A stretch of DNA of 64,000 bases. Source: an uncultured Methanosarcinaceae archaeon (GTDB lineage: Archaea; Halobacteriota; Methanosarcinia; Methanosarcinales; Methanosarcinaceae). The notes beneath the pieces are model-generated. The model did not search any database and was not told the origin of the DNA. It saw only the letters and a program-made list of their open reading frames with translations. The translations under genes were made by a program, and so were the position numbers. Shown here piece by piece: positions 1,819 through 45,569 of the stretch. The DNA lies in assembly GCA_963847185.1 (NCBI GenBank), contig CAWJYV010000004.1, forward strand, positions 96,001 through 160,000. The letters run 5' to 3'. Position 1 is the stretch's first letter. Every line of letters starts with the position of its first letter.

Positions 1819-4800
1819 TTATTTTTCATGTCTACTGGCTTCGGACTTTCCATAACCTCCACCTCCAGGGGTTTCTATCATAAATACATCTCCGCTTTTC
1901 AGCTTTAATTCAGCCTGTCCTCCAACCTCGATAATGCTACCATCCCTGCGGATAAGCGTGTTCTTTCCACATCTTCCGGACATACCGCCGTTTAGCCCGA
2001 AAGGTGGGAATTTTCTGTGGCTTGAGAGAATTGCAGCGTCCATCTCTTTCAGAAACCTGAGTTTTCGGACAACCCCGTTTCCGCCTCTGAATTTGCCTTC
2101 TCCCCCGCTTCCCCGCCGGATGGAGAATTCCTCAAGCAAAACAGGAAACCTTGTTTCAAGGATTTCAGGATCGGTAATTCTGGAGTTGGTCATGTGCGTA
2201 TGAACAGCGTCCGTTCCTGAAAAATAAGGGCCTGCCCCTGTGCCACCGCAGATGGTTTCATAATACTGAAATTCGGAGTTCCCGAAAGTGAAGTTATTCA
2301 TTGTACCCTGAGAGGCTGCCAGGGTCCCCAGGGCTCCGAAAAGGGCGTCAACAATGTACTGCGAAGTTTCGACATTGCCTGCAACAACCGCAGCAGGAGA
2401 TTTCGGCCTGAGCATTGACCCGTCAGGGATGATTATTTCAAGCGGCCTTAAACAGCCCGCGTTCAAGGGAATTTCACTTTTTACAAGCGTCCTAAAAGCA
2501 TAGAGGACAGCAGCCAGACAAACAGAAGCAGGAGCATTGAAATTATTTTGAAGCTGGGAAGAAGTACCTGTAAAATCTATTTTGGCACTTCGGTTCTTGC
2601 GGTCAATTATAACTTTTATTTTTATTGAGTTTCCGTCATCAAGCATGTAGGTGAATTCTCCGTCTGAAAGCCTGTCAATAACTCTTCTGACGGCTTCTTC
2701 AGCATTATCCTGCACATGGCCCATATAAGCTTCAACGGTTTCGAGGGAAAACTCTTCGACCATCCTGAATAGCTCCTGAAGCCCTTTTTCATTTGCAGCT
2801 ATCTGTGCCCTAATGTCAGCCATGTTCTGTTCCGGATTTCTTGCAGGGTATTTTCCTGAGTTCAACCATGACTTTAGTTTCTCTTCACAGAAACGGCCTT
2901 CTTGAACTATTTTCATTCCTTCACTTAACACTCCTTCTTCTTCAATATTCCTGCTTCCTGGAGGCACAGACCCCGGGCTGATTCCTCCTACATCGGCATG
3001 GTGACCCCTGGAAGCCAGATAGAACAGAACTTCTTCTGAAAGAGCTTCTTCAGACCTGTTGCCAAACATAGGAGTTACAACCGTGATATCAGGCAGATGA
3101 GTGCCTCCATGATAGGGAGAATTTATCAGAAAAACATCTCCTGCATACATTTCCTTAAACTGAGTTCGAATAATAGATTTCACGCATTCCCCCATGGAAC
3201 CAAGGTGCACAGGGATGTGAGGGGCGTTTGCTATCAGGTTTCCATCTCTATCAAAAACAGCACAGGAGAAATCCAGCCGTTCCTTAATATTCACGGAGTA
3301 AGCTGTGTTCTGTAGAGTATATCCCATCTGTTCGGCAACTGACATGAATCTGTTATTGAAGATCTCGAGCATCACAGGGTCAGTTTCTGTCCCTATGGCT
3401 GTACGGGTAAGAAGGGGAACTTTACGGGTCAGGAATAGATGATTACACTCGGTAATCTCTCCTTCCCACCCTGGCTCAAGAATAATAGTAGTATTTTTCT
3501 CAATAAGGATTGCAGGCCCGTTTATACAGGCTCCGGGTTTGAGTTCGTCCCTCCGGAAAACAGGTGTCTCATGAAACTCTCCATAGCTGAACATCTGAAC
3601 CGTAGATATGGGAGAAAAAATAGCATTTGATTCGTTTTCCAGAATAGGATCAGAAACTCTTTCATTAATTCCGATGATCTCCACAGAAACGGCTTCAACA
3701 ACCATGGATTTACCTTCCATAACGAATCCAAAGCGTTTTCTGTGCGCTTCCTCAAAAGCAGTTCTAAGAGTATCTTTATCCGCAAAATTCACATCTAACT
3801 GCGTATCCGAGCCTGCATAACGAGTGTGAATCCTAAAAAGTGCAGCAATGAAATCCTCCTGCACTCCCTGTTCCAGCATCAGTAAGCGTCCTTCATTCTC
3901 AAGCTCGGAAAATACTGTTTTTAATCTCTCCACGAGATTTTCTGAAAGTTCAGCTCCTATATAACGCTCTTTTATCAGTCTCTGGTCTGCAATTCCCATT
4001 CCATATGCTGAAAGGACGCCTGCATAAGGGTGAATGAAAATACTCTTAATTCCAAGGTTGTCTGCAACCCTGCAGGCGTGCTGAGCTCCGGCTCCTCCAA
4101 AACAACAGAGAGTATATTCTTTTATATTGTATCCTCTCTGGACGGAAATTTTCTTTATGGCGTTTGCCATATTCTCAACTGCGACCGAAAGGAAACCTTC
4201 TGCTACCTGTTCAGGAGTTTTGAGGCTATTTTCACCGGAAGGATTTTTTTCAGAGGGTTCATTTCCAGGAGATTCGTTTCCAGAAGATTCATTTTCAGAA
4301 GATTCGTTTTCAGAGAACTCATTTTCGGAAATTTCTTTTGCAAGCTCTGTGAATTTCCTGCGCACCAGTTCGGAATCAAGATCCTGGTCTGCACTGGGTC
4401 CAAAAAGGTTCGGGAAAAACTCGGGTCGCAATTTCCCAAGCATGACATTGGAGTCGGTAACAGTCAATGGCCCTCCTTTTCGATAAGATGCAGGTCCAGG
4501 GTCAGAACCTGCAGAATCCGGCCCTACTCTGAACCGGCCCCCTTCGTAATGTAATATGGAACCTCCTCCAGCTGCAACCGTATGGATGCGCATCATAGGA
4601 GAGCGCAAATGTACACCTGCAATTTCGGTTTCAAGACTGCGCTCGTATTCCCCACTATACTGGGCTACGTCTGTGGATGTTCCCCCCATATCGAAAGTGA
4701 TAACCTTTTTTGCTCCTGCCATGACAGATGTTGCAACTGCCCCCACGATTCCGCCTGCAGGCCCGGACAGAATGCAGTCCTTGCCCTGAAAAGCTTCAGC

Positions 4801-5688
4801 ATCTATAAGCCCTCCGCTAGACTGCATGAACATTAGTCTGGGACTTTTATTTGTTTCTCGTTTTTCTCCCCTTACCTTTTTCTCGCCTTTATTTCCTTTT
4901 ACTTCTTCTCCAACCTCTAGTTTCCCAGACCCATTTTCTTCTTTTTCTTCTCTTTCCCCTCTTTCTTCCAGAGTTTCCTGAACCATGTCAACATACCTGC
5001 GGAGCACAGGAGAAAGATACGCATCCACAACAGTTGTTTCTCCCCTGCTCACGAGTTTTATCAGCGGGCTTGTCTGATGAGATAAGGATACCTGTGTAAA
5101 ACCTATTTCTCTAGCTAGCCTTTCAAGCTTAAGTTCATGCTCAGGATATCTGTATGCATGCATAAGAACAACGGCAGTTGACCGAATCCCTTCTTTGAAA
5201 GCTATTTCAAGCTCTTTTTTTGCGTTTTCAAGATCCAGATGCACAAGCTCTTTCCCGTCTGCTGAAAGTCTTCCGGAGACCTCAATAACCCTTTCGTAAA
5301 GCTGCTCCGGAAGTTCGATCTTTTGAGCGAAAATATCCGGGCGGTTCTGATACCCGATCCTTAAAGCATCCCCAAAACCCTTATTTATAACAAGAACAGT
5401 ACGCTCCCCTTTTCTCTCAAGAAGCGCGTTTGTGCCAACTGTTGTCCCCATCTTTACGGACTCTATCAGTTCTGCAGGCAAGGATGCATCTGCAGGCAGC
5501 CCCAGAATCTGACAAATTCCATTAATAGCCGCATCTTTATAATGAGAAGGGTCTTCGGAAAGTAGTTTGTGTGTGATCAGTTTTCCATCAGGGCTGCGGG
5601 CAACGATATCAGTAAATGTGCCTCCACGGTCTATCCAGAATTGCCATTGGGCTTTGGGGGACATGAAAGGAATAATTGCACAGGTCAT
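1819..5688 (-). CDS. oplA: 5-oxoprolinase (ATP-hydrolysing), fused hydantoinase A/B
   Basis: IDRGGTFTD, DMGGTSTD, TVAAGGGS, SVNIKERLDFSCA, HIPVHLGSM and ETPGGGGYG motifs; 1289 aa. Confidence 0.93.
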   Translation of the reverse strand: MTCAIIPFMSPKAQWQFWIDRGGTFTDIVARSPDGKLITHKLLSEDPSHYKDAAINGICQILGLPADASLPAELIESVKMGTTVGTNALLERKGERTVLVINKGFGDALRIGYQNRPDIFAQKIELPEQLYERVIEVSGRLSADGKELVHLDLENAKKELEIAFKEGIRSTAVVLMHAYRYPEHELKLERLAREIGFTQVSLSHQTSPLIKLVSRGETTVVDAYLSPVLRRYVDMVQETLEERGEREEKEENGSGKLEVGEEVKGNKGEKKVRGEKRETNKSPRLMFMQSSGGLIDAEAFQGKDCILSGPAGGIVGAVATSVMAGAKKVITFDMGGTSTDVAQYSGEYERSLETEIAGVHLRSPMMRIHTVAAGGGSILHYEGGRFRVGPDSAGSDPGPASYRKGGPLTVTDSNVMLGKLRPEFFPNLFGPSADQDLDSELVRRKFTELAKEISENEFSENESSENESSGNESPGNEPSEKNPSGENSLKTPEQVAEGFLSVAVENMANAIKKISVQRGYNIKEYTLCCFGGAGAQHACRVADNLGIKSIFIHPYAGVLSAYGMGIADQRLIKERYIGAELSENLVERLKTVFSELENEGRLLMLEQGVQEDFIAALFRIHTRYAGSDTQLDVNFADKDTLRTAFEEAHRKRFGFVMEGKSMVVEAVSVEIIGINERVSDPILENESNAIFSPISTVQMFSYGEFHETPVFRRDELKPGACINGPAILIEKNTTIILEPGWEGEITECNHLFLTRKVPLLTRTAIGTETDPVMLEIFNNRFMSVAEQMGYTLQNTAYSVNIKERLDFSCAVFDRDGNLIANAPHIPVHLGSMGECVKSIIRTQFKEMYAGDVFLINSPYHGGTHLPDITVVTPMFGNRSEEALSEEVLFYLASRGHHADVGGISPGSVPPGSRNIEEEGVLSEGMKIVQEGRFCEEKLKSWLNSGKYPARNPEQNMADIRAQIAANEKGLQELFRMVEEFSLETVEAYMGHVQDNAEEAVRRVIDRLSDGEFTYMLDDGNSIKIKVIIDRKNRSAKIDFTGTSSQLQNNFNAPASVCLAAVLYAFRTLVKSEIPLNAGCLRPLEIIIPDGSMLRPKSPAAVVAGNVETSQYIVDALFGALGTLAASQGTMNNFTFGNSEFQYYETICGGTGAGPYFSGTDAVHTHMTNSRITDPEILETRFPVLLEEFSIRRGSGGEGKFRGGNGVVRKLRFLKEMDAAILSSHRKFPPFGLNGGMSGRCGKNTLIRRDGSIIEVGGQAELKLKSGDVFMIETPGGGGYGKSEASRHEK
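4250..4335 (-). repeat. Intragenic 15-bp tandem repeats encoding SENE(F/S)/(S/P)GNE(S/P) insertion
   Basis: Protein reads SENEFSENESSENESSGNESPGNEPSEKN. Confidence 0.7.
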
Positions 5689-5754: not shown

Positions 5755-6680
5755 TAGTGCATCGATTCCTAATTAATTCCTCTTTTTATACTATAATTTT
5801 TCCAGGCATTTCACCTCTTTCTTCCATTTTATATTTCCATGTAAAAATGACTGGCTTTTCGTTAATCTGATCTATATATTGACTAATTCTTTCCCTTGAT
5901 TCCTTTATCGATTCTACTCTTATTCCTCTCAGCAAGCTTCTTACCATTTTACTGAAAAAACTTTCAATAATGTTTAACCACGAAGCATGTTTGGGTGTGA
6001 ATATAAATTCAAATTTATCAGGAACAGTTTTCAGGTATTCTCGAGTTTCTATTGATGTATGTACTTTGTAATTATCCATCAGAATTTTGATTTTTTCTTT
6101 TGGGTAAATTAACTCCAGTTCTTTAAGGAATTGTATGAATTCCCAGCTTTTATGTTTCTCAAATACTTTATAATGAATTTTTCCTGATATCAAATCAATT
6201 CCAGCTAATAGTGAAATAGTTCCATGTCTTTTGTATTCATAATCTCTTGCTATTGTGGAATAACGCCCTTCTACTGGCATAAGATCTGGATAAACATTGC
6301 CAATTGCTTGAATACCTGGTCTTTCATCGTAGGAAATAATCACTGTATTAATTTCTTCTTTTTTTCATTTTTCCACTTAATTTTTTAGCCTCTCTATATG
6401 TGGCTAAGACATTGGCTGCTTTTTGATCAAACTCTGGATCAACTTTAGCAATATAAGAGCCAATTTTATGCGGTTTTATATTACTTGCATTGAGAATCTT
6501 TGAAACTGTTCCTTGATTTATCTTCGATAAATCAGGATGCCCCTCTTTAATACAATTTTCCCGGATATGTTTTACAAGAAGTCGCTGCGTCCATATTTCA
6601 TGAGGATAACCAAAATCCTTTGGTTTCATACATGCAAGTGAGACTAACCAAGCTCGTGATTCAGCGAGAATACCTTGGTG
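5755..6680 (-). mobile_element. IS630-family transposase remnant (frameshifted, 5'-truncated)
   Basis: ORFs 6348-6629 (HTH, WTQRLL) and 5786-6343 (SYDE, YKRHGT, MDNYKVH, PKHASWLNIIE DDE motifs) lie in different frames. Confidence 0.85.
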
Positions 6681-8701: not shown

Positions 8702-9264
8702 GTCATACTCACCCGTAAGTTTTTACCACATAATGATAGATGGAATTGTATAAAATGATTCTTAACTGATATTTAAGCGGAAAGTTAAAGAGGCTGATTA
8801 TAAAATTATACTCTTTTTTCTTGACACTTCTTTGATGGCTTTTGAATGTATTTCATTTAACCTGTTATTTCATTTAACCTATTTATCCTGCTTGATAAAG
8901 TCTACTATAAGTGTTTTGAATGAAAAGAAGAACTAGAGATCCTGTAGCAATATTAGGTTTAAGCCTAATGCTATCATTTCTTGCTGATCTAAAGAGCAGT
9001 TTTCTCTGCAGGTGACTTTTACATCTAAGTTCCAGATATTTATTCGTTAACTTATTGAGCTATTTCCCAGAAAAGATATTAATCATAATTATTAATTATA
9101 GATACTGCAAAAGTAAAATAATATAAAGTAATATATTAAAAATTGAAACCAAATATAAAGTGAGAAAATGAAGGAAGACAATCTGAAGCTAAGGTAACCT
9201 GCTATAAAAATGTATAGAAGCCAGCCAAGGCAAACAGAACCGAAATTAAACTGTCTAAAGAGGG

Positions 9265-9612
9265 ATTTCAATTCGTGAAGTAAGAGATTATATCCAGGAT
9301 ATCTATAATGCAATGGAAGCGGCAGAAGAATTTGTCAGCAACTGGACATTTGAGAAGTTTGCTGCAGATCGCAAGACACAGTTTGCAGTAATTCGGGCTC
9401 TGGAGCTTATTGGCGAAGCAGCAGAAAATATCTCCTGCGAAGTGCGTGAAAAGTATCCATCTGTCCCATGGAAAAACCTGGAAAGAATGAAGGATGAGTT
9501 AATCCACACTCACTTCGGCATCAACCTGAAAGTTGCCTGGATGTCCGTAAAAGAAGGCATATTCGAAGCGAAACCGGATATAAGATATATTCTGAATGAG
9601 ATGAGAAATTAG
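9265..9612 (+). CDS. DUF86/HepT-like ribonuclease, orphan and probably degenerate
   Basis: AVIRALELIGEAA...PW...KDELIH; the frame extends upstream of ATG 9313 (ISIREVRDYIQDIYNAM) to ATT at 9265. Confidence 0.7.
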   Translation: MSIREVRDYIQDIYNAMEAAEEFVSNWTFEKFAADRKTQFAVIRALELIGEAAENISCEVREKYPSVPWKNLERMKDELIHTHFGINLKVAWMSVKEGIFEAKPDIRYILNEMRN

Positions 9613-10716
9613 AGCTATTCTGTTTATTGAAACCAAGAATAAATTCCACTCTATTTTCTCATTTAGGTTCTATTCTCCCATTTAGGCTCTATTTTCTATA
9701 AGTGTGATTTGTTAGCATAAATTTCTCAGCCAGACTAGATTTCCTAAAAACTAACAGCTGCTTACTCAAGTTACAGGCAGAAATTCAAATAAATGATTTA
9801 ATTGGTATAAAAAATATCAGATAGTGTTCCCAATTTATTGATTAGGAATTTTAAACATTATGATTCCGGCTCTTCGCTGTCTTGTATGGATTTAAAATAA
9901 TTGCCTGGTTGAAAAATGACTGTTTCGGATAGAGAAACCTCGATCTTGAATATGTTTTTTCCAGATAAATTGTGTTCAAACATTACCCATATTTAGAAAG
10001 CAATTATAAATTATCCACTCGAAATAGCGAAAAGCCTTAAATATTTGTGTTAGGAGATCAAAAAAGCAGATTATTAACTAATTCACAGAATAAAGTATAA
10101 CAGAAGGCTCTTTAGCTAAAAAAAGTATGTAGGGGAGCCGCAGTGATAATTCAAGAAAATATCACGCTTTAGAATTGTAATGTGTACAATAGCAGTTTTA
10201 GGTCCTGATACAGACGCTTGAAGCATTTTTCTTCAAATAGGATAAAATACTAGCTTTAATATGGTAGGACTTAAACAGTGGAACTGAAAACAACAGAATC
10301 TACAGGATTCTTTCTTATCGGCTACAGGGTAGCAAAGTCTGTTGGATCGTTTCCTTTAATTGATCAAATCTGAAAAAAGCTCTTAATGCTATTGTTTTTC
10401 AGTTAAATGAATTATTTTTATGAATAAAATTAGGTGAGACTCATTCGCCAGCCTTTTTTGGCGAATTCCTGTCAATTTCAGGAAAGGATCTACAAAACAG
10501 ATCAGACTTTAATATGATTAAGTTCTCCTGTTTCTGTAGTCCGCCGAAAGGCTGTACGAATGTGTCTTCATGGATTTTACGTTTTATGGAGTGTCTAAGA
10601 CAGATTATATTCTATTCTTTCACTGTTTAGATAGCTAATAATTTATCTAAACAGCTTTTAATCCATGATGCGATTATTCAGCGGTCGGCGATTAGGATCA
10701 CTGCCGAAGCAATCGA

Positions 10717-10954
10717 TTAATCCCACCAGCCGCCGCGGCCTCTGCGACCTATGGCGCAGGCTCTACGAATTACGGTTGTTGCGCAAAGCCCTCGGTCCAC
10801 AGCCTCCGCCACAGCCACCGTCAAAGCCTCCCCAGCCTCCGCCGCAGCCTCCACCGCAGCCTCCAAAGCCACCGCAGCCTCCGCCACCAAAGCCAAATCC
10901 ACGATCAAACCCACGTCCTCTACCAAATCCACCAAATCCACCAAATCCGAACAT
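10717..10954 (-). CDS. Gly/Cys-rich peptide C (63 aa as written; probable 1-nt frameshift to a ...GGWWD end)
   Basis: GGGGGT RBS then MFGFGGFGG...GGCGGGCG; the +1 frame continues RGLCATTVIRRACAIGRRGRGGWWD* to 10717. Confidence 0.7.
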
Positions 10955-11803
10955 TTATTTTACCCCCATGTTGGTATATTATTTTAGATTTTTTTGTGTT
11001 TTTTTTCATTCTCGTATTTTCTACTTTTTGCATACAGGAGAAGACAAAACTTTTAAGATTAGAGTATGAAGTGGGTAAGAGTATACAATTACTCCAGGGT
11101 ATGCACTGAGCATACGATCCTCTAATCAAATTTTTTATCCACCCCTCAAATTGATAGTTACTTCTGGCAATTGTATTTGGAAACTATTCTAATCACTTCC
11201 TTCCGTCTGGAGAGAACAGATTCAAGTTTAACTGCCAGAAGTATAAACTAATATATAATTCTTGGATATATAAAATTAATAGAATATCTTTTACTTAATA
11301 CAAATAGGCTTTGAAAAACTGGGCACACATAACGTTAAAAAAGCGAAGTTACTTTTATATTTATTAGTAGATTTAAATCCTTTAAGTTATCCGCTAAAAT
11401 GAGGAGTTTTAGTCCATAATTCACGTTTTTACGCAAAAAAAGACCTCAATAATATAAATAAGACTTTTATGAGATGAATAAACCCCTTTTTCCAATTAAA
11501 GCCAATTAAAGGGTTCAAAATATACACATTTAGTTAAAAAAAGTTGTATTACTCTTTGATCACTCTTTCGAGATCTAAACTTCATGACTTTAGTATTTTT
11601 TTTAAAATTAAATTATTCGTATAAAAAGTAAAGTAACATAAAAGAGAACACATAGCCGTCAATCAAATGAGGTAATTCACCATATATTATCTCCCTTGCC
11701 TTGAAAAGACAGCTATGGTGTACTTCTTTATTTCAATACGTGGTGATCCTTTCATAATAGCTGTTAAAAGCCATTGAAATCCATTAACAGCTATTAGCTA
11801 TAA

Positions 11804-11899
11804 TTACCACCAGTTGTTCCAGCCGCCACAGCCGCAGCGGTTCCAGCCGCAGCCGCCACCGCAGCCGCCCCAGCGTCGGAATCCAAAACCCCAAAACAT
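11804..11899 (-). CDS. Gly/Cys/Trp-rich peptide B, 31 aa (MFWGFGFRRWGGCGGGCGWNRCGCGGWNNWW)
   Basis: Translated by hand; GGAGGT RBS 7 nt upstream of ATG; GC-rich island in AT-rich DNA; paralogous to 12136-12222. Confidence 0.85.
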   Translation of the reverse strand: MFWGFGFRRWGGCGGGCGWNRCGCGGWNNWW

Positions 11900-12135
11900 T
11901 GTGTTTACCTCCATAGATTACTAAATGGTTTTATTTACCTGTATTATTGGTTTATGTTACTTAAACCAATATAAAAGAAAACACCTAGCCATCAATTCAA
12001 ATGAGATAGTTCACCATAAATTATCTCCCTCGCCTTGAAAAGACGGCTACGATGATATTTCTTGTTCCAATACTGGTGGTTCTTTGAAGATAGCTGTTAA
12101 AAGCCATTGAAAGCCATTAACAGCTATTAGATGAA

Positions 12136-12222
12136 TTACCACCAGTCGCAGCCGCCACAGCCGCCCCAGCGGCCACAGCCGCCACAGCCGCCCCAGCGTC
12201 GGAATCTCCAACCCCAAAACAT
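12136..12222 (-). CDS. Gly/Cys/Trp-rich peptide A, 28 aa (MFWGWRFRRWGGCGGCGRWGGCGGCDWW)
   Basis: Translated by hand; same GGAGGTAAACACA-ATG context as peptide B; differences between the paralogs preserve frame. Confidence 0.85.
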   Translation of the reverse strand: MFWGWRFRRWGGCGGCGRWGGCGGCDWW

Positions 12223-12956
12223 TGTGTTTACCTCCAGTGATTAATGTGTAGTTTATTTACTCTGTATTATTGGTTTTATCCGTTTACTCCCTTTACAGAA
12301 CAGGGAAGATGAACTTTCCGAGTTTAGATTGCTTAATTTTTGAATCAAACTCTTCTCAACCTCCCTTATCTGTTTTATGCTCATGGCAACTTATTTGTAA
12401 AAGCTACTTTGTTTATCAATTCTCATTTAGAGTGGAACAAACTTGTTTTTAATGAAACAAACTTGTTTTTAGCTGCACCGAGCATAATTAAAAATTATAC
12501 AAATTATTATATATAAATGCTAGAATAATTCATTCTTATCATTGATAGGCTTGGAAAAATTAGGTAAACCGCCTCGCCAGAGAGCGAATTTACTTTTAAA
12601 CTTAAGTTATAATTTCTAATTTTTTAATGCTCCAACAAGATCAGGATTTTTTTGTCTATAATCCCATGTTAGCCAAAAAATAAAGCTCCTTTAGTAAAAA
12701 TAAAGTACATTTCCCTGATCAAATTCCATTGAAAGTTTTAAAAACTGCTAATTTTGTCGAAAAAATAAAATAACTCTTTTGGTAAAAATATTAAGTAACT
12801 TCACTCTTTTTTTGCGAACAAAAGTTCCTTGCCAAGTATGATATTACGACAATAGATTTTTTTCGACAATAGATTTTTCATTCATACATTGGATAAGAAA
12901 TTCGAAAATTCTTCAAATAATTATGTCCAGATTAATCTGAATGAGAGTTTTTGTTT

Positions 12957-13598
12957 TCAAATCTTCAATATTTTTATTAATTCCTTTGCCCATTTCAGCT
13001 TTTTTTTCTTAATCTGACTAACATCCGGATCTTCAAAATCAAATCCTGCCAGCCTTACGCTTTTACCTCCAAACTCCATTGCCACAAAAGCACACCTGTC
13101 TCCATCACTGAATCCACCGAAATTGTACACTTTATCAAAAGGCTGAGCCTGGGTAGTTGCAATAAAGCGCTTGAAAAGAGGTACATATTTTTCAAGCTTA
13201 TCGATATTATCTCCATGTGCGTGGATCAGGACTAATGAGCCCTTCTCACAGGCATGGATTTCTTTTTCAATATCGGCCTCGGAATTACCGTCAAGGTCGG
13301 TACAGATAACCTCAGGTACACGACCGATATCCATCAGAACGGCAGCTGCTCCATCGGCTGCAATTACCACAAAAGCAGAAAGCTCGATTCCCGAAAGCTC
13401 TTCCCTGAGTTTTGGGGCATTTCCGCATACCAGGACAGGCTTTCCGAAAATTGCGACTTTAAGTTCAGAGAGATTGACAGTATTATCCTCTGTCAGCAGG
13501 CTGGAGAGGAAGCGAGCTGCCTCTTCATCACCTGCACGGTCGAACCCGAAATCCTCAAGGATTCTTTCGTAAATCGGCTCCCAGGCAGCAAAGTCCGT
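12957..13598 (-). CDS. mptE: 6-hydroxymethyl-7,8-dihydropterin pyrophosphokinase (MptE/DUF115)
   Basis: VIAADGA, TDLDG, HAHGDN, NFGGFSDGDR, GFDF, KKKKLKWA; the frame is open upstream of 13370 to ACG-DFAAWEPIYERILEDFGF at 13598. Confidence 0.8.
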   Translation of the reverse strand, partial: TDFAAWEPIYERILEDFGFDRAGDEEAARFLSSLLTEDNTVNLSELKVAIFGKPVLVCGNAPKLREELSGIELSAFVVIAADGAAAVLMDIGRVPEVICTDLDGNSEADIEKEIHACEKGSLVLIHAHGDNIDKLEKYVPLFKRFIATTQAQPFDKVYNFGGFSDGDRCAFVAMEFGGKSVRLAGFDFEDPDVSQIKKKKLKWAKELIKILKI

Positions 13599-13662
13599 AT
13601 AATCACACCTTTTTCGTTTTTAATTTAAACGCCTATTTCTTATCGCATTTGCTTCTCAGTGC

Positions 13663-16600
13663 TTATTTCTTTGCAATTCCCATCTTCATGGCAATGCCTT
13701 CAACATCCCAGTCCTTTACAAGAGCTCCGGAAATCTCAATGTCGCTGCCAAGTTCAAAGGCATCAGCTCTTACCTCTTCTGCAATCAAGATTTTTAAGGT
13801 CTCGACGAGCTTCAGTACTTTTTCGTCTTCGATCCTGACAGACACACGGATATTTTCATCCACCACAAGGTCAAGTTCCTTCCTCATATCCTGGAGCCTG
13901 CGGATGACTTCTCTTGTATACCCTTCAGCTTCGAGTTCAGGGGTTAAGTTTGCATCCACATAGACAAGGCCTGCATCTGATTCGGCACTGGCTGCGCCTG
14001 CAGGCAGGGTTTCTTTGAAGTTTGCCATTCCTGGAGTAGCTATGGCAGTTGTTCCATCTGCAAGGATTAGTTCGAATTCTCCGGCCTCTTCAAAGGCTCT
14101 CTTTAAAGCAAAGCCGTCGAGCTTCTGCATGGCAGGTATGACTTTTCCTGCATCTTTCTTAAAGACAGGCCCGATCTTACCCGGATCTGGAATAACCTCA
14201 AGCCCAAGTTCTTCCCAGCTCCTACCTACATCTGTCAGGACAATTGCCTTGGAGTTGGTCTGGTCCATAAGAACCGAGCGCAGCTTCTCGACAGCCTTTG
14301 CTGCATCTTCACTAGTTGGAGATATAACTATTCTCGATATAGGCCACCTGAGTTTTCTTCCTGCCTTCTGGCGGGCATTTGAAGCAGCCTCAACAATGGA
14401 ACGGGCAGTGTCCATAGCTGCTTCAAGCTCAGGGTCAAGATAGTTTTCATTGACTTTCGGCCAGTCGCACATGTGGACAGATTCAGGAGCATTCGGGTCT
14501 ACATTCCTGATAAGGTTCTGGTACATCTCTTCAGCTAGGTAGGGCATGAAAGGAGAGATCAGCTTTGTAAGGATCACATAAACCTCGTAAAGTACACAGT
14601 AAGCTGCAAGCTTGTCAGGATCATCTGCTTCTGTCCAGGTCCTTGGGCGGATTAGCTGGATATACCAGCGGGAGAGGTCTTCCAGAGTAAACTCCAGGAC
14701 CTCACGGACCGCTTTGTGCAGCAGGTAACCGTTCATAGCCTCATCTACTGCTTTAACAACGGACTGGGCTCTTGAAAGGATCCACCTGTCTTCCTCACGG
14801 AGGGCATCTTTTACGGAATCAAGATTGACCTTCATGGGGTCGAAATTATCAAGAGCCATATAGGGCAGCGGGAACCTGAAGACGTTCCAGAGGATATTGA
14901 TTGAACGGTGGACGGTTTCCACTTCTTCAAGGTTGAACTTCAGATCTTCCCATGGTGCACTTGAGGAAAGCACATAGGCACGCAGGGTATCTGCCCCGAA
15001 CCTGTCGATAATGTCCAGAGGAGAAATAACATTCCCAAGGCTCTTGGACATTTTCTTTCCGCCTGCATCCAGAGTGAAGCCGTGCATGAGTACACTCTTA
15101 TATGGAGCCCTGCCAAAGCCAACCATGCTTGCTCCTAGCTGGGAATAGAACCATCCGCGAGTCTGGTCATGTCCTTCAGTTATGAAGTCAGCTGGCCACC
15201 ACTCATCAAACTGCTCCCTTGTCTGCGGGAACTTAAGGGTTGCCCAGGAAGCAACTGCCGAGTCAAACCAGACATCAAAGACGTCTTCAACACGCTTTTT
15301 CTCTCCCCCGCACTCACATGGGATAGTAACTTTGTCCACATAAGGACGGTGAAGCTCAATATCGCCGAAAGCCCCTGATTTTTCCAGCAGCTCGGCTTTT
15401 GTCCCTATTACCTCAAGCTTTCCGCATTTATGGCATTTCCACACAGGGATAGGAATTCCCCAGTAGCGTTGCCTGGAAATACACCAGTCCCGAGCGCCTT
15501 CAACCCAGGTTCTGAACCTTGCCGAGCCTGCCCAGTCAGGGTACCAGTCAACAGCATCGATTTCCTCAAGCATCTTGTCCTTGATCTCGGTAACTTTGAG
15601 GAACCACTGTTCGGTTGCAAGATAAATGATTGGAGTCTTGCAGCGCCAGCAGTGCCCGTATCTGTGGGTTACTGTCCCTTCAGCAAGGAGTCTGTTTCTC
15701 TCCTTCAGGTCTTCAATGACAATTGGATTTGCTTCCCTGACATTCTTTCCCGCGTATTCTCCGGCTTCTTCGGTATACGCCCCATTTGAGCCAACAGGGC
15801 AGAGAATAGGAAGCTTGTGCTTTACACCAAGATTAAAGTCGTCCATACCGTGCCCTGGTGCAATATGTACACAGCCTGTGTTTTCTACGGTTACGAAATC
15901 TGCAAGATAAACTCCGTGCTTTATATTTTTCTGGACGGGTACCAGATCTCCAACAGGACTTTCGTACTCGAGTTTTGTGAGCTCTTCCCCGAGCATAGTC
16001 TCAAGGACTTCATAGTCAACATACCTGCCCTGTTTAAGGACATTTTTGATCAGGTCTGTGGCAGCAATGAGAATTTCTTCCGAGCCGTCCTGCCTGACTG
16101 CCCTGAATTTTGAGTATTCGAAACCAGGGTGTACAGCTACAGCCACGTTTGCGGGAATTGTCCAGGGAGTTGTTGTCCAGATGACAATGAAGGTATTTTC
16201 TTCCCCTTTTATCTTGAATTTCACATAGATCGAAGGGTCGGTTCTCTCGGCATATTCAACTTCTGAGTCTGCAATTGCAGTTTCACAGCGCGGGCACCAG
16301 TTGACCGAACGTTTGCCCACATCCAGAAGATCTTTCTCATTTGCCTGTTTAAGGGTCCACCAGGCAGCTTCGATGTAATCATCCTTTAAAGTCATATAGG
16401 GTTCTGACCATCTCATCCAGACACCAAGCCTCTGGAACTGTTCGGTCATTGCCTGTTTCTGGGTAATAGCAAATTCTTTACATTTCTCTATGAAATTCTC
16501 TACCCCAAAGCTCTCGATATCCTTTTTGGATTTGAAACCGAGCAAACCTTCAACTTTGACCTCTATTGGCAGGCCGTGCATATCCCAGCCAGGGCGTTCA

Positions 16601-44381: not shown

Positions 44382-45026
44382 TTTTTGAATTTCATCTTTT
44401 TATTTGCATTCAATGTCTTACACTTGGTGGGGTTATCGATAGTAAAATATAGCTACTCAAAATATTAAGCCTATTGATAGTGTTTTTGAGAATCCTGTCT
44501 ATAGTATATGGAATAGCTATTAACAAAAACACATAGGCACGTTTAACCGAAGCTGTTTTATTTTGTTGAGTAAACAAATTCACTAAAAAACCTTAATTTT
44601 AGTTCATAATTGATTAAATATATCTGCGTAAAAAAGAAATTCTGTTTTAGTTATTAGTGTTACTTTCATTAATATATTTACATAACTAGTATGTTTTGCA
44701 TATATACTGAGAAACTGGGAAAAATAATCTAAAAATTGCAGTATCCTTTTAATACTATCAATATTTCTTGATCGGAATATCTGTCTAGTAGTTTTGTGCT
44801 TTTAGAGTTGCTAATCCTTTACAATAAAACATAGGCTTACTGTCTGCCTCTATGTGAGGCTTTCAGGGAATGGATGGGACGATTTACCCGTTTTAAAAAG
44901 CTTCTTAGAATGGCTTAGAATTAGAAAGTTAAAAGATCGGCATTTAAAAAAGATTGAGCTCTGATAAAAAGTACGTGTTTATTTCAGGCTCGTTTAATTT
45001 TTAATGCTTTTTTGACCAGCAGATTA

Positions 45027-45569
45027 TTATGGTGTTTCTTCCACTTCCATGCCATCTACTTCGTACAATCCTGCAAGTGTGAGTGTCACGTATTCTGGGG
45101 AATAGATTGGATGGCAGGCAGTTATTACTCCTATGTCATTTTCGAATATGACTTCTTCTACAGTCGGGATGTATGTACCGTGAATTGATTCGTCGAGTAT
45201 TCCTGTTCCTGTAAATATGAAAGAATTATCATCGGTATTGAATGTAAGATAGCCTAATGTGGTGTCCATGCCTGTGAATTCATTATGGATTACGATATCA
45301 CATGAAGTAAATGTTTTTTCGTTGCCTGTGTTCGGGTCTATTAAAGAGTAATTCATGACGTTTACGGCTTTCGTGCTGTTGTTTATTAGGATTGGTCCAG
45401 CGTCTAGCATATTGTTTATGTATGCTCTTACTTCTGGGCTCATGTTAATCGATACGTATTCTGGTTTTGGTACTTCTAGACCATCATCTGCTCCTGCTAT
45501 TCCTAAAAACAGAACAAATACTGCTAAAAAAAGGCACAGCGTGATTGATGCTTTGTAAAATGCTTTCGT
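45027..45569 (-). CDS. secreted hypothetical protein
   Basis: Frame extends 42 codons upstream of 45443 through a signal peptide (KAFYKASITLCLFLAVFVLFLGIAGA) to ACG after AGGAGG. Confidence 0.6.
   Translation of the reverse strand, partial: TKAFYKASITLCLFLAVFVLFLGIAGADDGLEVPKPEYVSINMSPEVRAYINNMLDAGPILINNSTKAVNVMNYSLIDPNTGNEKTFTSCDIVIHNEFTGMDTTLGYLTFNTDDNSFIFTGTGILDESIHGTYIPTVEEVIFENDIGVITACHPIYSPEYVTLTLAGLYEVDGMEVEETP

What the first reader, a model, noticed from the sequence alone, without database searches (positions are those of the whole stretch)
10717..12222. Hidden cluster of three Gly/Cys/Trp micro-peptide genes: candidate archaeal RiPP precursors or structural peptides
Seen: a ~3.3-kb apparently noncoding stretch (9.6-12.95 kb) holds three GC-rich minus-strand ORFs with strong RBSs. 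They are A (12222-12136) MFWGWRFRRWGGCGGCGRWGGCGGCDWW, B (11899-11804) MFWGFGFRRWGGCGGGCGWNRCGCGGWNNWW and C (from 10954) MFGFGGFGG...GGCGGFGGCGGGCGGGWGG. All start MF(W)G and carry repeated GGC units. A and B end in WW, and C does too after a 1-nt shift. A and B are below the ORF-track cutoff, and their differences preserve frame, as expected under coding selection. Known: repeated Cys-Gly-Gly units after RR with a terminal WW is the core pattern of Bacillus heterocycloanthracin/sonorensin precursors, which are YcaO-heterocyclised and often encoded away from their enzymes. Methanogens carry YcaO/TfuA chemistry. Inference: this may be an undescribed archaeal peptide family, either nearly leaderless azole/thioamide/radical-SAM-modified antimicrobials, metal-binding peptides or cross-linked envelope peptides. 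No modifying enzyme or exporter is in this window.
Basis: partly seen in the sequence, partly recalled or inferred. Interest (0 to 1): 0.88.

Follow-up and report, generated by a model that had tools for sequence, protein, structure and literature searches.

The report
Methanosarcina micro-protein gene cassettes
The three tiny glycine/cysteine/tryptophan-rich genes appear to be real members of an unannotated micro-protein family limited to Methanosarcina, each behind a conserved RNA leader, but nothing ties them to peptide-modifying enzymes and their job is unknown.

Summary
A (12222-12136), B (11899-11804) and C (from 10954) exist as written, each 7-8 nt behind a strong Shine-Dalgarno and followed by a stable hairpin. 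They are not isolated. The genome holds at least five more copies. Related ORFs sit in the same ileS-mptE-flanked island in many Methanosarcina species.

There are two sub-families:
- Type 1: 28-39 aa, WRRW core, ends WW.
- Type 2: 60-86 aa, conserved CC(I/V)TAVRAC motif, ends WW.

C is a type 2 gene broken by a 2-nt deletion.

Coding is supported by third-codon-position variation, in-frame indels and a conserved start context. Metatranscriptome contigs of relatives cover the units.

Every unit starts with a conserved ~138-nt leader with covarying helices. It was found in 26 of 34 other Methanosarcina genomes and 0 of 116 genomes of 15 sister genera.

The RiPP/heterocycloanthracin reading is not supported:
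- no family-model hit;
- no leader peptide;
- a single YcaO, paired with TfuA;
- no maturase or exporter in about 20 loci read.

The same Gly/Cys/Trp module recurs in signal-peptide proteins.

My best guess, at low confidence, is directly acting, disordered, surface-active or self-associating peptides. The family and its leader are undescribed as far as my six literature searches show.

The parts
12510..12517 (-). TATA-like box (TTTATATA) of transcription unit 1 (A+B)
   Evidence: Read. It has the same 32-nt spacing to the 5' arm of the leader helix as in unit 2. This is an inference; no TSS data.
12334..12490 (-). Conserved 5' leader element of unit 1
   Evidence: Covariance-model hit at 12466-12334, E 4.6e-5. 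The MFE fold of 12490-12350 forms the long-range helix, z -2.0. RNA contigs of a relative cover 12252-12400.
12230..12235 (-). Shine-Dalgarno GGAGGT of A
   Evidence: The same context is conserved in relatives.
12136..12222 (-). A: type 1 micro-protein gene, 28 aa (10 Gly, 6 Trp, 4 Cys, 4 Arg; net +3), ends WW
   Evidence: The G009 orthologue is 83% identical, with +6 and -3 nt indels, while the flanks are 92-95% identical.
12090..12127 (-). 3' hairpin after A
   Evidence: -19.1 kcal/mol, z -4.8.
11995..12050 (-). Conserved 3' block of the A unit, repeated after B and at G000:C4:44556-44668
11907..11912 (-). Shine-Dalgarno GGAGGT of B
11804..11899 (-). B: type 1 micro-protein gene, 31 aa (11 Gly, 6 Trp, 4 Cys; net +3), ends WW
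   Evidence: The G009 orthologue is 98% identical with one amino-acid change. An RNA contig of a relative covers 11700-11913.
11755..11796 (-). 3' hairpin after B
   Evidence: -15.2 kcal/mol, z -3.5.
11251..11274 (-). Two TATA-like boxes of transcription unit 2 (C)
   Evidence: Read. They are conserved in the leader alignment. This is an inference.
11115..11250 (-). Conserved 5' leader element of unit 2: a long-range helix plus a small hairpin
   Evidence: CM hit at 120 bits. MFE -33.8 kcal/mol, z -2.6. Covariation. RNA contigs from 4 runs cover 10931-11209.
10962..10967 (-). Shine-Dalgarno GGGGGT of C
   Evidence: Identical in the four paralogues of this genome.
10763..10954 (-). C, first part: type 2 micro-protein gene, open for 63 codons to a premature stop
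10717..10790 (-). C, second part in the next frame: the conserved C-terminal motif and the ...WWD stop. The frame is broken by a 2-nt deletion near 10789-10788.
   Evidence: Alignment to paralogue G000:C1:35405 and to G024. A relative's RNA contig that skips 10785-10824 (40 nt) joins the two frames; the contig is, table 5, and the arithmetic is mine.
10622..10655 (-). 3' hairpin after C
   Evidence: -15.8 kcal/mol, z -4.3. RNA contigs cover 10600-10784.

Best explanation
SHOWN.
A, B and C are members of a Methanosarcina-restricted family of micro-protein gene cassettes. Each cassette has:
- a TATA-type promoter region;
- a conserved ~138-nt structured 5' leader;
- about 100 nt of A-rich spacer;
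- a near-perfect Shine-Dalgarno;
- one to three tandem copies of a 23-86-codon ORF;
- a 3' hairpin.

Two to four cassettes form an island downstream of ileS-mptE. The ORFs diversify by in-frame repeat changes and duplication.

INFERRED, low confidence.
- The peptides have no signal peptide, no leader and no predicted fold. I infer that they are made in quantity and act as they are, at most oxidised or metal-bound.
- I read them as disordered, aromatic- and thiol-rich peptides that stick to surfaces or to each other. Trp/Phe/Arg would give interfacial or self-association. Cys would give cross-links or metal contacts.
- The nearest working analogy is to signal-less effector peptides such as phenol-soluble modulins, leaderless bacteriocins or Trp/Arg-rich antimicrobial peptides. 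The target would be the cell envelope or matrix, or competitors. These comparators are recalled from memory, not tested.

I put about 0.9 on 'real, translated gene family with its own leader' and about 0.3 on the mechanism. The single figure given is a blend of the two.
For: Family and coding
- Paralogues lie at G000:C1:35405, C1:38037, C1:180296, C4:45340 and C10:710266.
- The C unit matched 15 of 24 same-genus genomes in the sample, and the A+B unit matched 14 of 24.
- A 2.6-kb M. barkeri cluster matched 52 of 59 genus genomes, own included. Some of these matches are leader-only.
- SD+ATG ORFs of the two types were read in 16 of 22 Methanosarcina genomes whose loci I fetched. That choice was driven by hits, so it is biased.
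- Codon-position entropy is 0.31/0.22/0.61 for type 1 and 0.54/0.53/0.94 for type 2.
- Indels are in frame.
- The codon before the SD varies (ATG/CTG/GTG/TTG), so the downstream ATG is the start.

Transcription
- Contigs from four metatranscriptome runs, each from a different study, cover the C leader and ORF start, the C 3' end, B with its 3' region, and the A leader.

Leader
- 57 CM hits in 26 sources.
- 88.9% of cells are paired against 84.1% in shuffles. 14 of 18 pairs show double changes against 6.8 expected. 0 of 500 shuffles reach the observed values. Slid controls give 29-48%.
- 6 of 6 copies in this genome precede Gly/Cys/Trp ORFs.
- 26 of 34 other Methanosarcina genomes have it, against 0 of 116 genomes in 15 other genera.

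Direct action
- The SD is not sequestered: less paired than in shuffles in 16 of 22 genes.
- There is no maturase nearby.
- The A ORF diverges faster than its flanks, 83% against 92-95%.
- The same Trp-Gly-Gly-Cys module is repeated in proteins with an N-terminal signal-like segment (G000:C8 77229-76864; L039; L031). The signal is judged by eye.
- AlphaFold2 gives pLDDT 51 for B and 41 for type 2, that is, no fold.
Against: - There is no direct evidence of translation. No Ribo-seq or MS exists for these species, and the supplements of the M. mazei Ribo-seq paper were closed.
- The RNA evidence is unstranded contigs of 90-99%-identical relatives from RNA libraries that can contain DNA.
- No exporter or immunity gene lies in any locus, and the peptides have no signal peptide. 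An extracellular role therefore needs an unknown export route.
- AlphaFold2 shows no amphipathic helix for type 1, unlike the modulins and leaderless bacteriocins that I compare them with.
- Sister classes in the same island (the MGFF-type 26-27-aa ORFs) have no Cys and little net charge. The common denominator is aromatic richness, not cationic or thiol chemistry.
- The covariation count was made on a model-fitted alignment, which leans towards the structure.
- The entropy test used a protein-guided alignment.
- The strong GGC bias is unexplained and could reflect an RNA-level constraint. GGC is 80% (type 1) and 57% (type 2) of Gly codons, against 20% genome-wide and 21% in the mcr operon.
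Confidence: 0.4

Rival explanations
1. Cytoplasmic thiolate metal or Fe-S binding peptides, like a metallothionein or metallochaperone. The usual four Cys of type 1 would wrap one metal ion or cluster, with flexible Gly loops allowing variable spacing.
For: - A has two CxxC pairs, and 10 of 17 aligned type 1 peptides have exactly four Cys (my count).
- Cys columns are among the few invariant ones.
- There is no signal peptide.
- Methanogens have a high Fe/Ni/Co demand. This is background from the abstracts of PMC8516115 and PMC8351635, seen in the listing.
Against: - Cys spacing is not conserved: CxxC, CxC, Cx3C, Cx4C and Cx5C all occur.
- Cys is only about 13-16% of residues, and Trp is 20%. 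This is unlike classical metallothioneins (recalled).
- Sister classes under the same leader have no Cys.
- The same module occurs in secreted proteins.
- AlphaFold2 gives no knuckle-like fold.
Confidence: 0.18
2. RiPP precursors. The peptides would be modified by enzymes encoded elsewhere: the YcaO-TfuA pair, a SagB-like protein or one of the SPASM radical-SAM enzymes. The conserved C-terminal motif of type 2 could serve as a follower-type recognition sequence.
For: - The Gly/Cys-rich composition resembles azole-peptide cores (recalled).
- Precursor-like features are present: tandem copies, diversification and a strong RBS.
- The genome encodes YcaO+TfuA, a SagB-type domain protein and 8 SPASM-domain proteins.
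- A radical-SAM enzyme that cross-links a Cys-rich protein is known in Methanococcus (PMC13692751, abstract and section 8 read).
Against: - No family model matches.
- There is no leader peptide.
- There is only one YcaO, next to TfuA.
- No maturase, protease or exporter is linked in the loci of about 20 genomes, where synteny is with housekeeping genes.
- The module also occurs in signal-peptide proteins.
- Cys-free sister classes share the leader.
Confidence: 0.12
3. Self-toxic small peptides of type I toxin-antitoxin-like modules, kept silent by the long leader or by an antisense RNA.
For: - The ORFs are tiny and sit in tandem, multi-copy intergenic loci with long conserved 5' leaders.
- Copies lie next to transposase genes.
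Against: - The SD is not occluded beyond shuffled controls.
- The peptides have no hydrophobic membrane-spanning stretch.
- RNA contigs reach high word depth, up to 223-243, though depth in contigs is a poor measure.
- No antisense transcript could be tested because the contigs are unstranded.
Confidence: 0.07
4. Not translated. The G+C-rich islands would be functional RNA segments, for example G-rich structures, within non-coding RNAs that begin with the conserved leader.
For: - GGC/TGC/TGG codons give G-rich RNA, and the GGC bias is not explained by the codon usage of a highly expressed operon.
- All three forward frames are open in such sequence.
- The leader itself looks like a structured RNA.
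Against: - Third-position variation is 2-3 times that of positions 1 and 2.
- Indels are in frame.
- The SD-ATG spacing is conserved, and the stop comes directly after the aromatic C-terminus in every copy.
- Sister classes are not G-rich but keep the same SD-ATG layout.
- Gene callers already predict some type 2 ORFs: 3 of 5 intact type 2 sequences looked up are in protein databases as hypothetical proteins.
Confidence: 0.06

Closest known systems
Heterocycloanthracin/sonorensin and other Gly/Cys-rich azole-peptide (TOMM) precursors
   Same: Runs of Cys separated by Gly, small size and multiple copies.
   Different: - No hit to any NCBIfam or Pfam model at E<=10.
- No N-terminal leader.
- No cyclodehydratase/dehydrogenase cluster. 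The only YcaO is paired with TfuA.
- Very Trp-rich.
- Archaeal.
Signal-less effector peptides: phenol-soluble modulins, leaderless bacteriocins, Trp/Arg-rich antimicrobial peptides (all recalled, not tested)
   Same: - Translated without a signal or leader.
- 20-50 aa.
- Tandem copies.
- Genus-restricted and fast-diverging.
- Aromatic and, in type 1, cationic, with a WRRW core.
   Different: - No predicted amphipathic helix.
- Gly/Cys low-complexity sequence.
- No linked ABC exporter or immunity gene.
- No activity data.
Small-protein-encoding RNAs (spRNAs) and Ribo-seq sORFs of Methanosarcina mazei. Passages of PMC11456600 and the abstract and section 3.1 of bioRxiv 10.1101/2025.10.28.685009 were read.
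   Same: Independently transcribed intergenic small ORFs that are conserved within Methanosarcina.
   Different: - None of the described loci (near MM0940/41, MM1838/39, MM1870/71, MM2375/76) is the ileS-mptE island.
- The passages I read mention neither a Gly/Cys/Trp composition nor a shared leader.
- The supplements that list all sORFs were closed, so overlap with the MGFF-type ORFs of the M. mazei-like genome G012 cannot be excluded.
CrpA-type Cys-rich proteins of Methanococcus, modified by a SPASM radical-SAM enzyme (PMC13692751)
   Same: Cys-rich repeat proteins of methanogens.
   Different: - CrpA is larger than 100 aa, has a 47-residue leader-like N-terminus and sits beside its enzyme.
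- That survey excluded proteins under 100 aa (section 8).
- Here no enzyme is adjacent.
High-glycine/aromatic, Cys-containing matrix proteins such as keratin-associated proteins and plant glycine-rich proteins (recalled). The Pfam GRP family gives a sub-threshold match, only to a secreted paralogue.
   Same: Gly-aromatic-Cys low-complexity sequence in small proteins that cross-link or self-associate.
   Different: - The likeness is in composition only.
- Pfam GRP scores 20.4 bits against a cut-off of 30, and only for G000:C8 75861-75496.
- Those proteins are eukaryotic and secreted.

Membership tests
Heterocycloanthracin/sonorensin bacteriocin precursors (TOMM) | Match to the curated family model | tested here: not met
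   hmmscan of A, B and C against NCBIfam gave 0 families at E<=10. Pfam likewise gave none.
Heterocycloanthracin/sonorensin bacteriocin precursors (TOMM) | N-terminal leader peptide ahead of the Cys-rich core | tested here: not met
   Gly/Trp/Cys sequence starts at residue 2-4. A and C have no in-frame upstream start. B's 5-codon extension is not conserved.
Heterocycloanthracin/sonorensin bacteriocin precursors (TOMM) | Cyclodehydratase (YcaO with E1-like partner) plus SagB dehydrogenase, in the genome and usually clustered | tested here: not met
   - One YcaO (G000:C7:192273-193235), adjacent to TfuA (191674-192027).
- A SagB-type domain gene alone on contig C3.
- None in the fetched loci.
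Heterocycloanthracin/sonorensin bacteriocin precursors (TOMM) | Azole heterocycles in the mature product | not testable with these tools
   Needs mass spectrometry.
RiPP precursors in general | Genetic linkage or co-occurrence with a maturase, protease or exporter | tested here: not met
   The neighbours are ileS, mptE, an AAA_14/DUF4143 ATPase, surface proteins and transposases. Unlinked enzymes cannot be excluded.
Metallothionein-like metal-binding peptides | High Cys content in conserved CxC/CxxC arrays with few aromatic residues (definition recalled) | tested here: not met
   A has 4 Cys in 28 residues and 6 Trp. Cys spacing varies between orthologues.
Metallothionein-like metal-binding peptides | Metal binding | not testable with these tools
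   Needs biochemistry.
Leaderless bacteriocins / phenol-soluble modulins | Made without a signal or leader peptide | tested here: met
   The ORF structure shows this. It establishes a resemblance, not homology.
Leaderless bacteriocins / phenol-soluble modulins | Amphipathic helical fold | tested here: not met
   AlphaFold2 gives pLDDT 51.4 and no secondary structure for B. For type 2 it gives pLDDT 40.6 with one weak helix at residues 43-58.
Leaderless bacteriocins / phenol-soluble modulins | Dedicated exporter or immunity genes nearby | tested here: not met
   None in the loci read.
Type I toxin-antitoxin | Hydrophobic membrane peptide, with a sequestered SD or an antisense RNA | tested here: not met
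   There is no hydrophobic stretch. The SD is less paired than in shuffles in 16 of 22 genes. Antisense RNA could not be tested.
Any Rfam family (for the leader) | Match to a curated covariance model | tested here: not met
   cmscan of 9000-14000 at E<=1 gave only a chance microRNA match of 27.6 bits against a cut-off of 94.

The most novel reading that the evidence does not exclude
The ileS-mptE island may be a Methanosarcina-specific diversification locus. In it, a new cis-acting structured RNA leader, possibly a ligand- or protein-sensing switch, drives interchangeable cassettes of signal-less aromatic/Cys/Gly micro-proteins.

These micro-proteins would be the first peptide weapons or matrix and mineral-binding effectors described for a methanogen. 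They could work either as made or after new chemistry by unlinked enzymes.

The genus restriction matches Methanosarcina-only traits such as the methanochondroitin envelope and aggregate growth (recalled). These peptides could bind or cross-link that envelope.
Probability: 0.2. Interest if true: 0.85.

Novelty: new variant of a known kind. Interest (0 to 1): 0.62.

Why it matters
Methanosarcina is the main genetic model for methanogens, yet this island of two to four highly conserved cassettes is essentially unannotated.
- None of the 4 type 1 sequences, and none of 10 further micro-ORFs and paralogues that I looked up, is in a collection of 15 billion proteins.
- The few type 2 entries are named 'hypothetical protein'.

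If the peptides are made, they add a new, compositionally extreme class to the archaeal small proteome. They also add a new genus-specific leader RNA to the very short list of archaeal cis-regulatory RNAs.

M. acetivorans-size and M. barkeri genomes carry the island, so the questions are directly testable by deletion, Ribo-seq and top-down MS:
- Are the peptides modified?
- Are they exported?
- Do they bind metal?
- Are they antimicrobial?

The result also corrects the attractive RiPP reading, which current evidence does not support.

Tried and rejected
Searches that gave nothing useful
- Protein family searches gave nothing above cut-off: NCBIfam and Pfam on A, B and C, and Pfam on paralogues, sister classes and a surface protein.
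- Rfam gave only a chance hit.
- The PDB sequence search gave no meaningful hit. One 30-residue peptide scored E 0.36 for type 2, and type 1 had none.
- The ESM Atlas gave no usable hit.
- A profile search of 1.84 billion representatives with the type 2 alignment gave 6 hits, one of them a 1159-aa low-complexity protein.
- A word-seeded search for the secreted paralogue gave 2 unnamed hits.
- An HMM of type 1 found only 6 of 59 genus genomes and missed this genome's own A and B. I rejected it as insensitive to this composition and used DNA, pattern and covariance-model searches instead.
- Phage and plasmid collections: no phage match, and one chance G+C-rich match in a Halobaculum plasmid.

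Ideas tested and dropped
- AlphaFold2 gave no confident fold for either type. This says nothing on function.
- SD sequestration by the leader is not supported.
- Codon optimisation as the cause of the GGC bias is not supported, because the mcr operon uses 21% GGC.
- The exact WGGCGG word gave 23 hits in 10 of 35 Methanosarcina genomes (own included) and 2 hits in 2 of 116 other genomes. The two outside hits are not such peptides. The reversed control gave 4 hits in 151 genomes.
- RNA contig ends at 11187-11209 in four runs first looked like a TSS. I rejected this. The contigs are unitig-like, and the point lies where paralogous leaders become identical, so a graph branch explains it. It would also put the covarying 5' arm outside the RNA.
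- No RNA contig covered 11210-11700 or 12064-12185. This is no finding.

Literature
- Six searches and passages of six papers found no description of these peptides or of the leader.
- Supplements were closed. The sORF tables of PMC11456600 may list the MGFF-type ORFs.
Full report
1. THE OBSERVATION

Each ATG lies 7-8 nt behind GGAGGT (A, B) or GGGGGT (C). Each ORF is followed by a strong hairpin, z -3.5 to -4.8 against shuffles. The ORFs are 61-68% G+C in a 31% G+C spacer.

The stretch lies between a HepT-like ORF (+) and an MptE-like ORF followed by isoleucyl-tRNA synthetase (both -). The next genes are housekeeping genes or transposase remnants.

A and B are two copies of a ~330-nt unit that are 83% identical. 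The ORFs differ by 6-nt and 3-nt gaps.

2. A FAMILY, NOT THREE ORPHANS

Copies in this genome. The laid genome is 4.04 Mb in 10 contigs, and the window is C4:96001-160000. The C unit, including about 340 nt upstream of the ATG, recurs at 72-78% identity at C4:45007, C1:38370, C1:34998 and, in part, C1:180183. A Trp/Arg/Asp-rich 48-codon ORF with the same upstream region sits at C10:710266.

Relatives.
- The C unit matched 18 of 41 sampled genomes, own included. That is 15 of 24 in the genus; outside it there were only two marginal hits.
- The A+B unit matched 15 of 41: 14 of 24 in the genus and 0 of 16 outside.
- A 2.6-kb cluster from a complete genome matched 52 of 59 genus genomes, own included. 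Some of these matches are leader-only.
- The genus is Methanosarcina. That complete genome's type 2 proteins are database entries of M. barkeri, and all named hits of a profile search are Methanosarcina 'hypothetical proteins' (28 hits).

Two sub-families emerge from reading the loci (alignments).
- Type 1, which includes A and B: 28-39 aa of Gly/Cys/Trp, with a central WRRW-like motif, usually four Cys, and an ending of WW or WC.
- Type 2, which includes C: 60-86 aa, with a conserved Gly/Phe/Arg N-terminus, a variable Gly/Cys/aromatic middle, a conserved non-repetitive motif of the form CC(I/V)TAVRAC preceded by charged residues, and an ending of WW(D/N).

I found such ORFs in 16 of the 22 Methanosarcina genomes whose loci I read. 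That set was chosen from search hits, so it is biased.

C is broken. Against the paralogue at C1:35405 and a G024 orthologue it lacks 2 nt near 10789-10788. The conserved motif and the WWD stop remain open in the next frame. A relative's RNA contig that is 40 nt shorter between 10784 and 10825 joins the two frames exactly (table 5; the codon arithmetic is mine). This is either a very recent lesion or an assembly error.

3. CODING AND EXPRESSION

Coding.
- On the protein-guided alignments, nucleotide entropy at codon position 3 is two to three times that at positions 1 and 2: 0.31/0.22/0.61 for type 1 and 0.54/0.53/0.94 for type 2.
- Against the closest relative (G009), the A ORF is 83% identical with +6 and -3 nt indels, while its leader, spacer and 3' region are 92-95% identical. 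B is 98% identical with one amino-acid change.
- The triplet preceding the SD is ATG, CTG, GTG, TTG or other in different copies. The conserved GGAGGT is therefore a ribosome-binding site for the downstream ATG, not a codon pair.
- The SD region is not more paired than in shuffled controls. It is less paired in 16 of 22 genes.

Expression. No run held the whole stretch, but six RNA runs held about 8-12% of its words. Laying four metatranscriptome runs from four studies showed contigs of 90-99%-identical relatives over:
- 10600-10784 (C 3' end);
- 10931-11209 (C ORF start and leader);
- 11700-11913 (B and its 3' region);
- 11963-12054;
- 12208-12400 (A start and leader).

These contigs are unstranded, and DNA carry-over cannot be excluded. 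They show presence in RNA libraries, not level.

Annotation. Type 1 ORFs are unannotated: 0 of 4 are in the 15-billion-protein collection. Of the intact type 2 sequences, 3 of 5 are present. The truncated C is not.

4. A SHARED LEADER

The upstream regions align across paralogues and species. They contain an inverted repeat about 65 nt apart, with compensating changes.

A covariance model built from 12 sequences found 57 copies in 26 sources. In the window these are 11250-11115 (120 bits) and 12466-12334 (38 bits).

On the model-made alignment:
- 88.9% of cells pair, against 84.1% in shuffles;
- 14 of 18 pairs show changes on both sides, against 6.8 expected;
- 0 of 500 shuffles reach the observed values;
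- slid controls pair 29-48%.

The alignment is fitted to the model, so I treat this as good but not final support. Single-sequence folds give the same long helix for both window leaders, z -2.6 and -2.0.

In this genome all six model hits lie about 100-130 nt upstream of a Gly/Cys/Trp ORF. Across the family Methanosarcinaceae the model hit 26 of 34 other Methanosarcina genomes and 0 of 116 genomes from 15 other genera. No Rfam family matches.

5. THE ISLAND

In 10 of the 15 loci fetched, and in the window, the cassettes lie directly downstream of ileS and mptE on the same strand. Further downstream there is commonly a ~430-aa protein. In the three cases I tested it is an AAA_14 + DUF4143 ATPase.

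In an M. mazei-like complete genome (G012) the same gap has no G+C-rich ORF. It has two leader copies, each followed by an SD-ATG ORF of another kind: a 27-aa aromatic ORF starting MGFF, and a 30-aa Cys/Phe-rich ORF.

G007, G013, G014, G041, G047 and G060 carry such classes, often as two or three tandem copies, beside or instead of type 1. None of the 10 sequences I looked up is in the protein collection. These were 7 micro-ORFs from G041, G013 and G060, plus this genome's C10 ORF, another G060 ORF and the secreted paralogue.

The island is thus an array of interchangeable micro-ORF cassettes under one kind of leader. The Gly/Cys/Trp peptides are its commonest cargo.

6. WHAT THEY ARE NOT

Family models, structure libraries and the Atlas give nothing.

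The RiPP reading fails each testable membership feature:
- no model hit;
- no leader peptide;
- one YcaO, adjacent to TfuA;
- a lone SagB-type domain gene on another contig;
- 8 SPASM-domain genes, none nearby;
- no maturase, protease or exporter in any locus.

Unlinked enzymes cannot be excluded, so I keep this rival at 0.12.

7. WHAT THEY MIGHT DO

Three observations guide the guess.
- The cassettes look built for expression: double TATA-like boxes, an open SD and stabilising 3' hairpins.
- The peptides have no predicted fold: pLDDT 51 for B with no secondary structure, and pLDDT 41 for type 2 with one weak helix over the conserved motif.
- The same Trp-Gly-Gly-Cys...Asp-Trp module is repeated two to three times in a 116-aa protein of this genome. 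That protein begins with a basic-hydrophobic-Ala-Ser-Ala segment, which looks like a signal peptide by eye (G000:C8 77229-76864). Similar signal-bearing Trp/Gly/Cys or Trp/Asp/Asn-rich proteins occur in other species, in one case inside the island.

The module therefore probably works outside the cytoplasm in at least some contexts.

Add to this the aromatic richness shared by all classes, the cationic WRRW core of type 1, and the faster divergence of A than its flanks. I then favour directly acting, surface-active or self-associating peptides, directed at the envelope or matrix or at competitors.

Against this:
- no export route is visible;
- the Cys-free sister classes weaken any thiol-centred mechanism;
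- nothing here measures activity.

Metal binding (0.18), RiPP (0.12), self-toxin (0.07) and non-coding RNA (0.06) remain as rivals.

8. NOVELTY AND VERDICT

Six literature searches and the passages I read describe neither the peptides nor the leader. The papers read were:
- the M. mazei Ribo-seq paper;
- the spRNA preprint;
- the Methanococcus Crp paper;
- the M. barkeri proteome paper;
- the archaeal bacteriocin preprint;
- the sonorensin paper.

Supplements were closed and may list related sORFs of M. mazei.

I rate this a new variant of a known kind: intergenic small-protein genes of Methanosarcina, with a new composition, a new leader and an island organisation. Interest is 0.62. The family and leader are solid and testable in genetic model strains. 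The function is open, and the exciting RiPP claim is not supported.

Noticed in passing
L033 (G014) 10000-14700; L034 (G012) 9200-10700; L057-L061: Other micro-ORF classes sit under the same leader in the same island: 26-27-aa aromatic ORFs starting MGFF/MGYF in 2-3 tandem copies, 23-37-aa Cys/Phe/Trp-rich ORFs, and 51-54-aa Gly/Tyr/Cys ORFs. The 7 of them that I looked up, from G041, G013 and G060, are not in protein databases.
   Followed up: partly
G000:C8:75496-75861 and 76864-77229 (locus L052 5496-5861, 6864-7229), minus strand: Two tandem 121-codon ORFs share a signal-peptide-like N-terminus and a conserved C-terminal ~30 aa. Their repeat middles differ: one is acidic Asp-Leu-Gly-Ile-Gly repeats, and the other repeats the type 1 Trp-Gly-Gly-Cys module. 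No Pfam family is above cut-off.
   Followed up: partly
window 10717-12222 and relatives: GGC makes up 80% (type 1) and 57% (type 2) of Gly codons. This compares with 20% in long ORFs of the genome and 21% in the mcr operon. It is unexplained.
   Followed up: partly
window 12957-13628 (-): The MptE-like ORF is only 137 codons here and in the close relative G009, against 213-229 in other species. The upstream extension contains a stop. It may be a split gene or may use a later start.
   Followed up: no
window 9313-9612 (+): A HepT-like ribonuclease ORF of 99 aa borders the island. I looked for no partner nucleotidyltransferase gene.
   Followed up: no
G000:C4:44333-45555 (60 kb upstream of the window on the same contig): This is a partial duplicate of the window's cluster. 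It holds the 3' block of the A/B unit (44556-44668), a leader (45056-45190) and an intact 71-codon type 2 ORF (45340-45555).
   Followed up: partly
G000:C1:36360-36620 and 181582-181842: An identical 86-codon ORF with a hydrophobic middle lies beside two of the type 2 paralogues, together with transposase ORFs. It may be part of a duplicated segment.
   Followed up: no
L033 8823-9422, L057 7752-8435, L058 53-655, L059 9707-10306, L060 4519-5118: A conserved ~199-aa protein recurs inside or beside the island in several species. It has a signal-like N-terminus and a C-terminal hydrophobic segment followed by Lys residues. No Pfam match is above cut-off for the one I tested.
   Followed up: partly
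window 5786-6343 (-) and 1819-5688 (-): A DDE_3 transposase fragment lies next to a 1289-aa hydantoinase/oxoprolinase fusion gene. The AAA_14/DUF4143 ATPase that follows the island in other species was not seen among the window ORFs I tested.
   Followed up: no
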